The notes below the pieces were generated by a model. That model had not been told where the DNA came from, searched no databases, and saw only the letters and a list, made by a program, of their open reading frames with translations. From Candidatus Woesearchaeota archaeon (lineage in GTDB: Archaea > Nanobdellota > Nanobdellia > Woesearchaeales > WAPY01), in the NCBI GenBank assembly GCA_027064225.1, contig JAMOQB010000053.1:1-30725 (forward strand): a stretch of 30,725 bases of DNA, read 5' to 3'. Shown here one piece after another: positions 2,819 to 6,174 of this stretch. Within the stretch, counting starts at the first letter, position 1. Each line of letters begins with the position of its first letter. Both the position numbers and the translations under genes were made by a program.

Positions 2819-3475
2819 TTAAAAGTTTATCTTGTCTCCAGTCAGATGAAAATATGCGGAATAAGCTATACCCACAATTGCATTAACAACATCTTCCCAC
2901 GACTCAACTGAAGAAGAATCGCCTTGACTCTTCAACTTTTTTGAAACCGCATCTTTTAACTTTACAAAGAACCCTTTTGACTTACTTTCTCCATCATAAA
3001 TTTTCTTATCAACATGATATGACAAAATAGCAAGCTCGTAGTTAAAGAAAAAATCAGAAAGTGTGTCCCTAAGCAAATTTTCAATATTTGGATAAAACAA
3101 ACTCGAATTGCTTGAAAGATTTTGTTCAACAGTTGCAACAATGCTATCTGTATCAACTCCATAAATAGCGAGAATATGATACGCTTCCATTTTGGCAGTT
3201 TCATTATCAGATCCAAAAAAGGATTTTGAGAAGGAAGACACTAAGATTTCCAAAGTAGAAGAGTTACAATCTTTCTTCGTTTGCCTTTTCGCCCGTTTCA
3301 CTGGGAAGAAAGATAAGTTTGTGTAATTTTCCTCCGTTCCAGAACAATTATTTTTATTATCTGATAATCTCTCTGAAAAAAGCTCATAAAACTTGTTTTC
3401 CTTTGTTTTCAATTCCTTTAAAAAGTTCAAGGAGTCATCAACTAAGGATTCTAACAAGGACTTCCTCTTAGCCAT
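2819..3475 (-). CDS. Hypothetical protein (~218 aa)
   Basis: Long ORF filling the gap between polB and the divergent gene. Start moved from 3538 to ATG 3475 (MAKRKS) because a TTTTTATAT box lies at 3496-3504, 22-29 nt upstream. No recognisable family. Confidence 0.7.
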   Translation of the reverse strand: MAKRKSLLESLVDDSLNFLKELKTKENKFYELFSERLSDNKNNCSGTEENYTNLSFFPVKRAKRQTKKDCNSSTLEILVSSFSKSFFGSDNETAKMEAYHILAIYGVDTDSIVATVEQNLSSNSSLFYPNIENLLRDTLSDFFFNYELAILSYHVDKKIYDGESKSKGFFVKLKDAVSKKLKSQGDSSSVESWEDVVNAIVGIAYSAYFHLTGDKINF

Positions 3476-3558
3476 AAACATAAATGACAATACAAATATA
3501 AAAATCTTACTAAAATAACTACTATAAAAAGAATACAATACTTTTTAACGAGTAAGAG

Positions 3559-3594
3559 TTTATAAATTATACTAAATATGATTATTAAGAGGTG
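3559..3594 (+). promoter_or_regulatory. TATA box (TTTATAAA, 3559-3566) and Shine-Dalgarno (GAGGTG, 3589-3594) for the 3600 gene
   Basis: Archaeal consensus motifs at the expected spacing from ATG 3600. Confidence 0.6.
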
Positions 3595-3599
3595 TCTTC

Positions 3600-5456
3600 A
3601 TGACTGAAAAAGGCAAAAAGAAAACAATTAACAATAAAAAGAAACAACCGCTTAACAAAAACAAAAGTCCTGTTGAGGAAGGGCTAAAAAACATGATTTC
3701 TGACCCAAAAATTAAGGAAAAGCTGAAGAAGATTGTAGATGACAGTAAGAAGTTTGAGAAGGAAATTGTCAAAAAGTTTGGAGATTACATCTTAGGTATA
3801 TCTCTGCTTCCAAAAAAACCTGAAAATAAAGGTGAAAAGGAACATATAAGACTCATAGTACTTGTTGATGATTCTGACTCTAAAAAGATGAGCAAGGAGG
3901 AATTAGAAGCAAAGCTCTCAGCTGTTATGAAAAAGATCGCCTCAGACATTTCAAAAGACCTTGAACCTGAAACACTTCTCCTGTCAAAACTTTGGGAGAA
4001 ATGTTATGATGGTGATTATGACATCCTGAAAGACCTTGCGGTTTCAACAATTATTTATGACAAGGGTATGATGTCTGCCATAAAGATTGCAGAAGTTCAC
4101 AAAACAATGATATTGAAGAAGTTTGAAAAGTATATAGTAAGCTATGTTCTTGCAGGGTCATTAGTCAAGGGCAGAGCGACGAAAGAAAGCGATATTGATG
4201 TCTGGGTTGTTGTAGATGACACAGATGTGAAAAGGATGAGCAGAGCTGAGCTTAAAGATAAGCTAAGAGCTATTATAATAAAATACGGCATTGATGCTGG
4301 AGAAATAACAGGAATAAAAAACAAATTGAACATACAGGTTTATATACTCACGGAGTTCTGGGATTCTCTAAAAGAAGCCAACCCAGTAATATTCACTCTC
4401 CTAAGGGATGGTGTGCCTTTCTACGACAGGGGAATATTCATGCCTTGGAAGCACCTGTTAAAGATGGGCAGGATAAAACCAAGTCAAGAAGCGATTGATC
4501 TTTTCAAAACAACTGGTAAGGAAATCCTACCAAGAGTAAAAAGTAAACTTAGAGACATAGGCACAGAGGATTTGTATTATGCCATGCTGACTCCTGCTCA
4601 AGCAGCAATAATGCTCTATGGACTGCCTCCAAAAGACCCGAAAGAGACAGCTGAAACCCTAAGAGAAATCTTCGTAAAAAAGGAGGGAATTTTAGAAGAG
4701 AAATATGCAAAGATGCTTGAAAGGGTTATAAAACTGAGGAAAGATGTGGAACATGGAGTTAAGAAGGAAGTTACCGGAAAGGAAATTGACGAATTAATAA
4801 GTGATGCTGATAAGTTCTTGAAGAGGATAGACAGATTATTTACTCAGATATACAAGAAGAGGGAAGAAGAGAAGGTCCTTAAACTCTACAACTCAGCTGT
4901 TGATGTAATAAGGGAAGCACTAAAATCCGTCGGAAAGGAAAGTATCAAAGAGAGGGATATTCCAAAACTATTCCGTGAAGAACTTGTTGAAAAGGGATTT
5001 GTAAGAAGCGAACTGCTCAAAAAGGTTGAAAATTTAAGCAAATGGAAGAAGCTCTATGAAGACAAAAAGATAACAAAATCAGAGCTTGAAAAGGCATTCA
5101 AAGACACAGAAGAGTTAATAAGAGAACTCATAGAATTCGTACAGAGGAAAAGATTCTTAGAGATTGAGAAAGCCAAAGTAAGGATTAGATATAACAAGGA
5201 TAAAATAGCGGAACTTGTCCTCTTTGAAAACCATGCTGTTTTGTACCCAAACATAAAAAACAAGGAAAACGCAAAACTTCTGTTAGTCAGTAAAGAAGGA
5301 GGATTCAAAGAAGAAAAGGAAAATGCAAATGAAGATGAAATACAAGAAATAATGAAAAAGGAAAAAACAATAAACAGAGGTTTAAAGAGAAATGACCTTG
5401 AAAGCTTGGCTGAAATCTTAAACGACGAGAACTTAGAGGTAATAATAAATCCCTGA
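3600..5456 (+). CDS. Pol-beta-superfamily nucleotidyltransferase (MNT)-HEPN fusion protein with duplicated domains
   Basis: GS-x10-DID motif (G186-S187, D198, D200: LAGSLVKGRATKESDIDVWVVVDD), a degenerate N-terminal copy of this domain, and a HEPN-like helical region with RKDVEH (R380-x4-H385). Confidence 0.8.
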   Translation: MTEKGKKKTINNKKKQPLNKNKSPVEEGLKNMISDPKIKEKLKKIVDDSKKFEKEIVKKFGDYILGISLLPKKPENKGEKEHIRLIVLVDDSDSKKMSKEELEAKLSAVMKKIASDISKDLEPETLLLSKLWEKCYDGDYDILKDLAVSTIIYDKGMMSAIKIAEVHKTMILKKFEKYIVSYVLAGSLVKGRATKESDIDVWVVVDDTDVKRMSRAELKDKLRAIIIKYGIDAGEITGIKNKLNIQVYILTEFWDSLKEANPVIFTLLRDGVPFYDRGIFMPWKHLLKMGRIKPSQEAIDLFKTTGKEILPRVKSKLRDIGTEDLYYAMLTPAQAAIMLYGLPPKDPKETAETLREIFVKKEGILEEKYAKMLERVIKLRKDVEHGVKKEVTGKEIDELISDADKFLKRIDRLFTQIYKKREEEKVLKLYNSAVDVIREALKSVGKESIKERDIPKLFREELVEKGFVRSELLKKVENLSKWKKLYEDKKITKSELEKAFKDTEELIRELIEFVQRKRFLEIEKAKVRIRYNKDKIAELVLFENHAVLYPNIKNKENAKLLLVSKEGGFKEEKENANEDEIQEIMKKEKTINRGLKRNDLESLAEILNDENLEVIINP

Positions 5457-5601: not shown

Positions 5602-6174
5602 ATGAAAACAGGTTACAAAGTGTTGGACGCAATGACAAAAAATCCGATAATAATCTCTCCAGATGCGACAGTAAAAAGCTGCGCCGAATTAATGCGAAAA
5701 GAGAAGGTAAGCGGACTTCCAGTCGTGGAGGATGAAAAACTTGTTGGTGTAGTAACCGAACATGACATAGTTAGAAAAGTCGTTGCAGAAGGAAAAAGCT
5801 TGAACAAGAAAATCAAAGATATAATGGTAAAGAAAGTTATTACAATAAAATCAAACGCAGATATATATGAAGCTTTAGAAAAGATGAAAAACTATGGAAT
5901 AAGACACTTACCTGTAGTTTACAAGAAAAAATTAATTGGGCTTCTAACAGTTAAGGACATTCTAAAAATAGAACCCCAACTCTTTGAACTCATAGCAGAG
6001 ACATATGAGATAAGAGAAGCATACAGAAAGCCGATAAATAACAAATCAGGACCAGGAATCTGCCAGATATGTGGGAGATTCGCCACAGAACTCTTCTTAG
6101 TTGATGGGGTGCTTATGTGTGAGGAATGCAAAAGGGAGAATGAACAACAGAAGAGTCACAAGAAAAGTATTTAA
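5602..6174 (+). CDS. Tandem CBS-domain protein with C-terminal zinc ribbon
   Basis: Two CBS repeats (SGLPVVEDEKLVGVVTEHDIV; RHLPVVYKKKLIGLLTVKDIL) and CQICG...CEEC. TATA TTTATAA at 5567-5573. Confidence 0.9.
   Translation: MKTGYKVLDAMTKNPIIISPDATVKSCAELMRKEKVSGLPVVEDEKLVGVVTEHDIVRKVVAEGKSLNKKIKDIMVKKVITIKSNADIYEALEKMKNYGIRHLPVVYKKKLIGLLTVKDILKIEPQLFELIAETYEIREAYRKPINNKSGPGICQICGRFATELFLVDGVLMCEECKRENEQQKSHKKSI

What the first reader, a model, noticed from the sequence alone, without database searches (positions are those of the whole stretch)
3600..5456. Single-chain duplicated nucleotidyltransferase-HEPN protein (dMNT-MNT-HEPN-dHEPN)
Seen: two internal duplications. NTase copies: KKFGDYI / KKFEKYI; VLVDDSDSKKMSKEELEAKL / VVVDDTDVKRMSRAELKDKL; IIYDKG / PFYDRG. 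Copy 1 has lost the GS and DxD motifs; copy 2 keeps G186-S187 and D198-x-D200. Helical copies: LREIFVKKEGILEEKYAKMLERVIKLRKDVEH / FREELVEKGFVRSELLKKVENLSKWKKLYED; EVTGKEIDELISDADKF / KITKSELEKAFKDTEEL. Only the first has Rx4H (R380-H385). A small beta-rich C-terminal domain follows. Established: MNT-HEPN pairs are toxin-antitoxin modules in which the MNT adenylylates the HEPN RNase, and HEPN RNase sites form at a dimer interface. Inference: one chain encodes a pseudo-dimer of each half, with one active and one dead copy. It sits among housekeeping genes with strong TATA and SD signals, suggesting a domesticated, self-regulated RNase or nucleotidylation enzyme rather than a mobile TA pair.
Basis: partly seen in the sequence, partly recalled or inferred. 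Interest (0 to 1): 0.8.

Follow-up and report, generated by a model that had tools for sequence, protein, structure and literature searches.

The report
Duplicated MNT-HEPN core protein of DPANN
This gene encodes a 618-residue protein built from two nucleotidyltransferase and two HEPN domains (one live and one dead copy of each) plus an orphan end domain; it is a near-universal, expressed housekeeping protein of Nanoarchaeota-type archaea, its function is unknown, and its only fully conserved chemistry is nucleotide transfer, not RNA cutting.

Summary
ORF 3600-5456 (+) encodes dMNT(45-166)-MNT(167-300)-HEPN(301-420)-dHEPN(421-525)-C domain(526-618). Profile-profile comparison supports both duplications (N1/N2 99.3%, E 5e-20; H1/H2 97.5%, E 5e-12). 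The AF2 model (pLDDT 87.7) and fold searches agree. The C domain is a confident fold with no relatives outside this family.

The family is not new. It is the DPANN cluster cls.004259/NEQ050 of Makarova, Wolf and Koonin 2019 ('MNT fused to HEPN ... house-keeping context'), and this scan has met it before on other genomes. It matched in 401 of 401 good genomes of the phylum, and NEQ050 is detected in the N. equitans proteome.

The 'self-regulated RNase' reading is weakened:
- The MntA signature GSX10DXD is exact and invariant.
- The HepT acceptor Tyr (RX4HXY) is absent.
- The HEPN arginine is replaced by Tyr/Phe/Trp in every member of one whole family (0/14 keep R).
- K381, E384 and H385 stay near-invariant.

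Best reading: a domesticated, single-chain nucleotidyltransferase that uses the HEPN K-x2-E-H face to bind its acceptor; the substrate is unknown. A CBS/zinc-ribbon gene follows it in 12 of 23 loci. Shorter MNT-HEPN-dHEPN forms occur in Aenigmarchaeota.

The parts
3559..3566 (+). TATA-like box TTTATAAA, about 35 nt upstream of the start codon
   Evidence: Read directly from the sequence
3589..3594 (+). Shine-Dalgarno-like GAGGTG, 5 nt before the ATG
   Evidence: Read directly from the sequence
3600..5456 (+). Whole ORF, 618 aa (P0001), member of DPANN cluster cls.004259/NEQ050
3600..3731 (+). Residues 1-44: poorly conserved tail, Lys-rich in this protein; disordered to about residue 23, then the start of a helix
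   Evidence: pLDDT below 50 for residues 1-23; column entropy 2.49 bits and variable length and charge across the family
3732..4097 (+). N1, residues 45-166: degenerate MNT (Pol-beta NTase) copy without GS or DxD; keeps a DD(S)D loop
   Evidence: hhalign against N2 99.3%, E 4.9e-20; motif states; same secondary-structure order as N2
4098..4499 (+). N2, residues 167-300: active-type MNT domain and the most conserved part of the protein
   Evidence: Pfam NTP_transf_2/Polbeta; MNT antitoxin 8xeh_E Z 9.6; entropy 1.41 bits
4155..4199 (+). G186-S187-X10-D198-x-D200, the exact MntA signature GSX10DXD
   Evidence: invariant in 106/106 and 14/14 orthologues
4500..4859 (+). H1, residues 301-420: HEPN domain
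   Evidence: 2hsb (AF0298 HEPN) profile E 7.8e-8; VIA Z 11.3, rmsd 2.6 A, 24% identity
4737..4754 (+). R380-K-D-V-E-H385. It matches Rx4H here, but the family-wide invariant part is K381-x2-E384-H385
4860..5174 (+). H2, residues 421-525: degenerate HEPN-derived four-helix unit (K483...D488 in place of R...H)
   Evidence: hhalign against H1 97.5%, E 5.1e-12; VIA matches to small HEPN-type bundles at Z 7-9; no PDB HEPN hit by sequence alone
5175..5453 (+). C domain, residues 526-618: family-restricted beta/alpha domain
   Evidence: pLDDT 94; best PDB Z 4.7; significant AFDB-cluster and Atlas matches appear confined to this family
5602..6174 (+). Downstream CBS-pair plus C-terminal CxxC...CxxC zinc-ribbon gene, the only recurrent neighbour and a candidate partner or regulator
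   Evidence: Pfam CBS; same-strand downstream neighbour in 12 of 23 loci; Cys positions at least 90% conserved; has its own TATA-like box after an oligo-T run

Best explanation
This is a domesticated, housekeeping Pol-beta-type nucleotidyltransferase of Nanoarchaeota-type (DPANN) archaea, derived from an MNT-HEPN module.

The catalytic unit is the inner pair. N2 holds the GSX10DXD site that binds NTP and metal and transfers an NMP. H1 is a HEPN domain used, as in two-domain NTases such as ANT(4')/KNTase, AadA, HI0073/HI0074 and GlnD/GlnE, as the helical domain that binds and positions the acceptor. Its conserved K381-x2-E384-H385 face is the likely acceptor- or phosphate-contacting site.

The outer, fast-evolving pair (dead N1 and dead H2) probably replaces the second subunits that free MNT and HEPN proteins get by dimerising, so one chain carries one active site. 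The C domain and, in some lineages, N-terminal TPR arrays would dock a macromolecular target.

Shown: domain identities, the duplications, conservation patterns, distribution, and expression of the orthologue.
Inferred: that catalysis is nucleotidyl transfer, that H1 binds the acceptor, the intramolecular pseudo-dimer, and the type of acceptor (protein or RNA 3' end; not determined).
For: - NTase residues are invariant: G186, D198, D200, D207 in 106/106 and 14/14 orthologues, and 39-41 of 41 in the divergent set.
- N2 is the most constrained domain, then H1; N1, H2 and C are looser.
- The GSX10DXD spacing equals the MntA signature.
- The HEPN arginine is dispensable in a whole family (0/14 keep R) while K381/E384/H385 persist. 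This fits a binding or acid-base face better than a canonical HEPN RNase site.
- Fold matches for 157-422 are two-domain NTases (ANT(4') Z 10.9, 3c18 Z 10.5, AAD(9), LinB). Among reviewed proteins the best are GlnD and then MntA.
- Core-gene behaviour: a match in 401/401 genomes and 281 genera, more than 570 named Woese/Nanoarchaeota records, a full-length orthologue in a 490,885-bp N. equitans-type genome, and NEQ050 (540 aa) detected in the proteome.
- TPR-fused forms and a recurrent CBS/zinc-ribbon neighbour point to macromolecular partners and nucleotide-sensing regulation.
Against: - There is no biochemical data for any member.
- In the window's own order the full Rx4H is almost invariant (103-104/106), so an RNase activity may matter there.
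- The inter-domain geometry differs from ANT enzymes or could not be superposed (rmsd 18-19 A), and I could not inspect coordinates.
- Net charge of all domains is near neutral, with no clear RNA-binding surface signal.
- The third catalytic carboxylate is not clearly identified (position 252 is D/E in 34/41; Q246 is near-invariant).
- The CBS interaction test gave no answer.
Confidence: 0.5

Rival explanations
1. Domesticated self-regulated HEPN RNase. H1 is an RNA-processing or quality-control endoribonuclease, and the cis MNT switches it off and on by ATP-dependent auto-AMPylation, tying RNA cleavage to energy state.
For: - H1 is a true HEPN fold with Rx4H in this protein, and the motif is kept in 103-104 of 106 orthologues of the window's order, in G247 and in the N. 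equitans-type genome.
- The N2 motif is the MntA signature.
- A fused MNT-HEPN that auto-oligoAMPylates has been shown experimentally (FhepTA, PMC13000451).
Against: - The acceptor Tyr of RX4HXY is absent in all lineages.
- The arginine is Y/F/W in 14/14 genera of family f87, and R380 is only 27/41 in the divergent set.
- HEPN RNase sites are normally composite, from two Rx4H motifs at a dimer interface (established knowledge). Here the partner repeat H2 has lost the motif, so a full site would need a further homodimer.
Confidence: 0.2
2. Small-molecule nucleotidyltransferase of the ANT/Lnu type. The N2-H1 cleft adenylylates or otherwise nucleotidylates a metabolite or cell-envelope precursor needed by these host-dependent cells.
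For: The best two-domain fold matches are aminoglycoside and lincosamide nucleotidyltransferases, in which the helical domain helps to bind the small acceptor (established for KNTase/AadA).
Against: - Sequence-level kinship is to MntA-type protein adenylyltransferases (NCBIfam MntA E 5e-6; PDB 5yep) and GlnD.
- TPR fusions and the extra docking domains suggest macromolecular targets.
- The surroundings are information-processing genes, not metabolic ones.
Confidence: 0.12
3. Nucleotide-binding scaffold or sensor without turnover. The conserved site binds ATP or another nucleotide, and the protein acts structurally or as a regulator, perhaps with the CBS protein.
For: Half of the domains are already pseudo-enzymes. 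The CBS neighbour suggests adenosyl-ligand sensing. Some members (P0154, P0157) have lost both DxD and Rx4H.
Against: Strict invariance of both metal-binding Asp residues and the GS loop over more than 120 orthologues is typical of active NTases. The doubly dead members are rare.
Confidence: 0.1
4. Ordinary type VII toxin-antitoxin or anti-phage defence module that happens to be fused.
For: The domain families are those of HepT/MntA. There are weak PADLOC hits of the NTase domain to candidate system PDC-S09 (E about 1e-6).
Against: Near-universal in the phylum (one full-length locus in each genome examined, plus a short paralogue), 50-64% identity over the full length, no mobile-element context, and expressed in N. 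equitans. The PADLOC hits cover only a generic MNT domain.
Confidence: 0.03

Closest known systems
DPANN-specific cluster cls.004259 (representative NEQ050), Makarova, Wolf & Koonin 2019, PMC6393860
   Same: This is the same family. [quoted passage not shown] A full-length orthologue lies at 42.8-44.4 kb of a 490,885-bp genome, and its 540-aa length equals the NEQ050 entry in the proteome table.
   Different: The paper calls it most probably a TA module with some important role. In the passages read, it does not describe the internal duplications, the dead copies, the orphan C domain, the missing acceptor Tyr or the lineage-wide loss of the HEPN arginine.
Type VII TA HepT/MntA (Shewanella SO_3166/SO_3165; PMC7641770)
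   Same: MNT with GSX10DXD and a HEPN with Rx4H. MntA is the nearest characterised sequence relative of N2.
   Different: That system is two small genes, patchily distributed and often on mobile elements, and it AMPylates the Tyr of RX4HXY. Here there is one 618-aa chain with duplicated domains, no such Tyr, core-gene distribution, and no separate HEPN toxin in the genome.
FhepTA, fused MNT-HEPN TA of Shewanella prophage CP4So (Yao et al. 2026, PMC13000451)
   Same: A single chain with an N-terminal MNT and a C-terminal HEPN. In FhepTA the cis MNT controls HEPN by auto-oligoAMPylation and by blocking HEPN dimerisation.
   Different: FhepTA is 276 aa with one copy of each domain, sits on mobile elements, and keeps the Tyr next to the motif. 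The window's genome has a protein of that size (273 aa, on contig C49), but it lacks Rx4H.
Two-domain nucleotidyltransferases: ANT(4')/KNTase, AadA/AAD(9), LinB, HI0073/HI0074, GlnD/GlnE
   Same: A Pol-beta NTase domain followed by a helical, HEPN-like substrate-binding domain. These are the best fold matches over residues 157-422.
   Different: Identity is only 10-16%. The domain orientation could not be superposed (rmsd 18-23 A). Those enzymes are homodimers or multidomain regulators, not N-N-H-H single chains, and their substrates are known.

Membership tests
DPANN cluster cls.004259 / NEQ050 | MNT domain fused to a HEPN domain in one protein | tested here: met
   Pfam and PDB profile hits; fold Z 9.6 for MNT and 11.3 for HEPN
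DPANN cluster cls.004259 / NEQ050 | Orthology to NEQ050 of N. equitans | tested here: met
   The family profile hits a 540/541-aa ORF at 42,835-44,421 of a single 490,885-bp contig (E 4.4e-80, profile positions 31-591). NEQ050 is listed as 540 aa.
DPANN cluster cls.004259 / NEQ050 | Conserved across DPANN genomes in a housekeeping context, not patchy | tested here: met
   401/401 genomes with a match; neighbours PolB, LonB, S8e, L35Ae, TFIIB, LSm
[quoted passage not shown] | GSX10DXD motif in the MNT | tested here: met
   G186-S187, ten residues, D198-I-D200; invariant
[quoted passage not shown] | RX4HXY motif in the HEPN (Tyr is the AMP acceptor) | tested here: not met
   R380-x4-H385-G-V387. 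Tyr is not among the residues listed at position 387 in any lineage; the common ones are T/E/D/V/S/L/K.
[quoted passage not shown] | Two-gene (or simple fused) module with patchy, often mobile distribution | tested here: not met
   Core-gene distribution and no mobile context; no stand-alone HEPN gene in the genome
HEPN RNases (Rx4-6H) | HEPN four-helix fold | tested here: met
   2hsb Z 11.3, rmsd 2.6 A; sacsin, Roquin and TT1696 HEPN domains Z 8-10
HEPN RNases (Rx4-6H) | Catalytic Arg and His conserved across the family | tested here: not met
   Arg is 0/14 in family f87 and 27/41 in the divergent set; His is 30/41. Both are kept in the window's order (103-104/106).
HEPN RNases (Rx4-6H) | Composite active site from two Rx4H motifs at a dimer interface | not testable with these tools
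   H2 has lost the motif.
Pol-beta superfamily nucleotidyltransferases | hG[GS] loop and DxD metal-binding pair on the adjacent strand | tested here: met
   (the strand at 199-205 follows the GS loop)
Pol-beta superfamily nucleotidyltransferases | Third catalytic carboxylate | tested here: inconclusive
   Candidate position 252 is D/E in 34/41; Q246 on the neighbouring strand is 39/41. It cannot be placed without coordinates.
ANT/KNTase-type two-domain NTases | NTase domain plus helical domain forming one substrate cleft | tested here: inconclusive
   Both domains match (Z 7-11 over 157-422), but with rmsd 17-19 A, so the relative orientation is not shown to be the same.

The most novel reading that the evidence does not exclude
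A toxin-antitoxin module was turned into an essential single-chain enzyme at the root of the Nanoarchaeota-type DPANN. Its one live MNT site nucleotidylates a cellular macromolecule (a protein, or an RNA 3' end) held on a re-purposed HEPN K-x2-E-H face, possibly under control of a CBS/zinc-ribbon nucleotide sensor. That would be a previously undescribed housekeeping modification pathway specific to these ultra-small archaea.
Probability: 0.3. Interest if true: 0.75.

Novelty: new variant of a known kind. Interest (0 to 1): 0.55.

Why it matters
DPANN archaea have very small genomes (this one is 735 kb), so a 618-residue protein found in every sampled genome of the phylum, and expressed in N. 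equitans, is likely to do something important. Yet it has no assigned function.

It is a clear case of a conflict-system module (MNT-HEPN) being fixed as a core gene. The pattern of what is and is not conserved narrows the experiments:
- The MntA-type site is invariant.
- The acceptor Tyr is missing.
- The HEPN arginine is dispensable.
- K-x2-E-H is invariant.

So the first thing to look for is NMP transfer to a target, before RNA cleavage.

The series MNT-HEPN (273 aa), MNT-HEPN-dHEPN (about 430 aa, Aenigmarchaeota), four-domain plus C domain (about 620 aa) and TPR-fused (about 1,100-1,340 aa) also shows how a homo-oligomeric system can be hard-wired into a single asymmetric chain.

Tried and rejected
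1. Replacement of the CCA-adding enzyme: rejected. A canonical class I CCA enzyme (PF01909 plus PF09249, 439-aa frame) is on contig C71.
2. Replacement of the exosome's tailing and decay role: rejected. Adjacent Rrp41/Rrp42-type RNase PH genes are on C70.
3. A separate HEPN toxin as target of the MNT: none in the genome.
4. Binding to the downstream CBS/zinc-ribbon protein: complex prediction gave no answer (score 0.00, below the mark). This is neither support nor evidence against.
5. Conserved upstream divergent partner (about 200 aa): the upstream ORFs of different loci are not detectably homologous (best cross-match E 0.015).
6. PolB/LonB adjacency as an operon clue: not conserved beyond close relatives.
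7. H2 alone against PDB sequences: no HEPN hit. Its HEPN origin rests on the H1/H2 profile match and weak fold matches.
8. C domain: no fold relative in PDB (best Z 4.7). In AFDB clusters and the Atlas the only significant matches appear to be this family.
9. Defence-system models: only generic MNT-domain hits.
10. Expression of this very gene: only DNA runs (hydrothermal-vent metagenome) hold it, and no RNA run was listed.
11. Geometry of the model (N1:N2 and H1:H2 packing, distance from DxD to K-E-H): not possible because coordinates are not exposed.
12. One-step 'nested insertion' origin (an N-H unit inserted into another N-H unit): considered, but the existence of N-H-H' forms without N1 favours stepwise duplication.
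Full report
**What is there.** The window holds a single 618-codon ORF at 3600-5456 on the + strand. A TTTATAAA box lies at 3559-3566 and a GAGGTG site at 3589-3594.

Pfam finds a Pol-beta/MNT nucleotidyltransferase domain at 172-237 (E 1.7e-6), above its gathering cut-off. It also finds weak HEPN signals at 324-411, below their cut-offs. NCBIfam's best hit is the MntA antitoxin model (E 5e-6, below cut-off). The only PDB sequence hit is the HEPN protein AF0298 (2hsb, E 0.002).

**The two duplications are real.**
- Residues 40-165 align to 166-300 at 29% identity (E 7e-7).
- On sub-alignments cut from family alignments, hhalign gives N1/N2 99.0% (E 9e-18, 35 close homologues) and 99.3% (E 4.9e-20, 41 divergent homologues).
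- The helical halves are not significant as single sequences. They reach 69% (E 4e-5) and 97.5% (E 5.1e-12, 97 columns) as profiles.
- Every non-cognate domain pair scores 3% or less, so Lys/Glu-rich composition is not the cause.
- In the H1/H2 alignment R380 faces K483 and H385 faces D/E488. N1 lacks GS and DxD.

**Structure.**
- AlphaFold2 with the 41-sequence alignment gives mean pLDDT 87.7 and pTM 0.60.
- The helix/strand order of 36-154 repeats in 157-276. Two four-helix units are joined by one continuous helix, 393-443.
- VIA-align matches H1 (313-416) to the HEPN protein 2hsb (Z 11.3, rmsd 2.6 A, 24% identity) and to other HEPN domains (sacsin, Roquin, TT1696).
- N2 matches MNT antitoxins (8xeh_E, Z 9.6). 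The N2-H1 pair matches two-domain nucleotidyltransferases (ANT(4') Z 10.9, 3c18 Z 10.5, AAD(9), LinB), but with rmsd 17-19 A.
- H2 (about 411-520) matches small helical bundles, including HEPN toxin 8xdj and Csm6, at Z 7-9. That is within the noise range for helical bundles. Foldseek agrees.
- Among reviewed proteins the best matches are GlnD and then MntA.
- The C-terminal domain folds at pLDDT 94 by itself. It has no PDB relative (best Z 4.7). In AFDB clusters and the ESM Atlas its only significant matches are Nanoarchaeota-type proteins that appear to belong to this same family.
- I could not read the coordinates, so the intramolecular 'pseudo-dimer' packing remains an inference.

**The family is known but uncharacterised.** Makarova, Wolf and Koonin (2019, PMC6393860) list DPANN cluster cls.004259, representative NEQ050. 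[quoted passage not shown]

The family profile finds a full-length orthologue (E 4.4e-80) at 42.8-44.4 kb of a single 490,885-bp contig. From my own knowledge, that is the size of the N. equitans Kin4-M genome. The ORF is 540 aa, the length given for NEQ050 in the N. equitans/I. hospitalis proteome supplement (PMC3149612). There it is called 'Predicted nucleotidyltransferase' and carries non-zero counts (90 and 241), higher than aeRF1 (56 and 98). No other paper in the library mentions NEQ050, and I found none that assigns a function.

This scan has noted the same family on other genomes. Two earlier follow-ups reached the same identification.

**Distribution.**
- The word-indexed search gives more than 3,400 homologues, nearly all about 600-650 aa and 50-64% identical.
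- The exhaustive profile search gives 878 clusters at the 50% identity level (269 at E below 1e-30).
- All 401 high-quality genomes sampled from the phylum (281 genera) have a match, roughly 380 of them a strong full-length one. Most have a second, weaker match.
- Named records are Woesearchaeota, Nanoarchaeota or Nanoarchaeia.
- The window's genome is 735 kb and estimated complete. It has only three Pol-beta NTase genes: the CCA enzyme, this protein, and a 273-aa MNT-HEPN paralogue on contig C49 that keeps GS/DxD but reads SKKIIYRD where Rx4H would be.

**What is conserved.**
- Domain entropy ranks N2 (1.41 bits) below H1 (2.04), then N1 (2.44), C (2.56) and H2 (2.74). So the inner N2-H1 pair is the functional core.
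- In 106 non-redundant orthologues of the window's order, G186, S187, D198, D200, D206, D207, D209, K381 and E384 are 106/106. R380 is 103/106 and H385 is 104/106.
- In 14 genera of another family of the class (f87), all NTase residues, E384 and H385 are 14/14 and K381 is 13/14. But R380 is never Arg (Tyr 11, Phe 2, Trp 1).
- In the divergent 41-sequence set, R380 is 27/41 and H385 is 30/41, against 39/41 for K381 and E384.
- So the invariant motif on H1 is K-x2-E-H, not R-x4-H.

**Comparison with the TA mechanism.** HepT/MntA pairs are defined by GSX10DXD in MntA and RX4HXY in HepT, the Tyr being the AMP acceptor (PMC7641770). The fused FhepTA of Shewanella keeps that Tyr and auto-oligoAMPylates (PMC13000451).

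Here GSX10DXD is met exactly (186-200). The H+2 position is Val in this protein and T/E/D/V/S/L/K across lineages, with no Tyr recorded. The genome has no stand-alone HEPN gene. PADLOC gives only generic MNT-domain hits.

**Context.**
- Neighbours in the window are PolB, an unannotated 239-aa ORF, a CBS protein, LonB and S8e.
- Across 23 loci from about 20 families, the only recurrent neighbour is the CBS-pair/zinc-ribbon gene. It is downstream on the same strand in 12 of 23, eleven of them within about 510 bp.
- In this genome that gene has its own TATA-like box after an oligo-T run.
- Tandem small paralogous proteins follow in 5 loci, in line with an earlier follow-up's note.
- In family f87 the long form and the short paralogue lie 3-5 kb apart in at least seven genomes.
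- Some relatives of 1,083-1,340 aa carry about 700 residues of TPR repeats in front of the module.

**Origin.** Proteins of 420-443 aa, one cluster of them named Aenigmarchaeota, align to residues 159-511 (32-35% identity). They keep R-K-x-V-E-H and lack both N1 and the C domain. With the 273-aa MNT-HEPN paralogue, this gives a series N-H, N-H-H', N'-N-H-H'-C and TPR-N'-N-H-H'-C. That favours stepwise domain duplication over a single nested insertion.

**Most likely function.** I commit to a housekeeping nucleotidyltransferase in which N2 transfers an NMP and H1 serves as the acceptor-binding helical domain through its K-x2-E-H face. The dead N1 and H2 act as built-in partners, and the C domain (or TPR arrays) docks a macromolecular target. 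Confidence is about 0.5. The acceptor (protein or RNA 3' end) is not determined.

The self-regulated RNase reading keeps about 0.2, because Rx4H is nearly invariant in the window's own order. Small-molecule NTase (0.12), non-catalytic sensor or scaffold (0.1) and ordinary TA/defence (0.03) are the other rivals.

**Ideas tested and dropped.**
- CCA-adding substitute.
- Exosome substitute.
- A conserved upstream partner.
- The CBS interaction test gave no answer.
- No RNA run was listed for this gene.

**Verdict.** The family was already flagged in 2019 and repeatedly in this scan, so it is not a new kind. This analysis adds:
- the statistical proof of both duplications;
- the orphan C domain;
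- the missing acceptor Tyr;
- the lineage-wide loss of the HEPN arginine, against an invariant K-x2-E-H;
- the three-domain intermediates;
- the CBS/zinc-ribbon linkage;
- the proteomic evidence for the orthologue.

Noticed in passing
L002:1495-2316 (-) = own genome contig C49:3143-3892: A 273-aa single MNT-HEPN paralogue (35% identical to residues 163-416) that keeps GS and DxD but has SKKIIYRD instead of Rx4H. It lies next to a 335-aa ORF that I judged QueA-like by eye (no family search was run). Most genomes of the phylum show such a second match, and in family f87 it lies 3-5 kb from the long form.
   Followed up: partly
window 5602-6174 (+): A CBS-pair protein with a C-terminal CxxC...CxxC zinc ribbon. 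It is the same-strand downstream neighbour of the MNT-HEPN gene in 12 of 23 loci from many families. The complex prediction gave no answer.
   Followed up: partly
window 2819-3538 (-): A divergently transcribed 239-aa ORF (possibly about 217 aa from an internal ATG) with no Pfam hit. Helical ORFs of about 200 aa occupy the same position in other loci but are not detectably homologous.
   Followed up: partly
P0185, P0186, P0189, P0198, P0204, P0211, P0219 (representative search): Giant relatives of 1,083-1,340 aa carry about 700 residues of TPR repeats N-terminal to the module. Their taxa are unknown.
   Followed up: partly
P0229, P0250, P0253 (420-443 aa): Three-domain MNT-HEPN-dHEPN forms without N1 and without the C domain. 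One cluster is named Candidatus Aenigmarchaeota. They are likely evolutionary intermediates.
   Followed up: partly
P0154, P0157 (585-588 aa, in alignment A2): Full-length family members that have lost both the DxD pair (E-I-N and P-I-K) and the Rx4H motif. They look like fully dead paralogues or orthologues.
   Followed up: no
G402:C1:51657-53321, G396:C13:23111-24622, G410:C28:106-1605: Orthologue matches in family f87 with in-frame stops (8, 2 and 1 respectively). These could be pseudogenes, assembly errors or matches running past the gene end; I did not examine them.
   Followed up: no
L027:8542-9570, L035, L040, L045 (downstream of the orthologue): Tandem arrays of two or three paralogous small proteins (166-207 aa, no annotation) downstream of the MNT-HEPN gene in 5 of 23 loci. 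This echoes an earlier follow-up's 'partner triad'. They are absent from this window.
   Followed up: partly
L050-L129 record titles: Many Woesearchaeota-type MAG contigs are deposited under the title 'uncultured Methanosarcinales archaeon'. This appears to be a bulk-submission label, not a real taxonomic signal.
   Followed up: no
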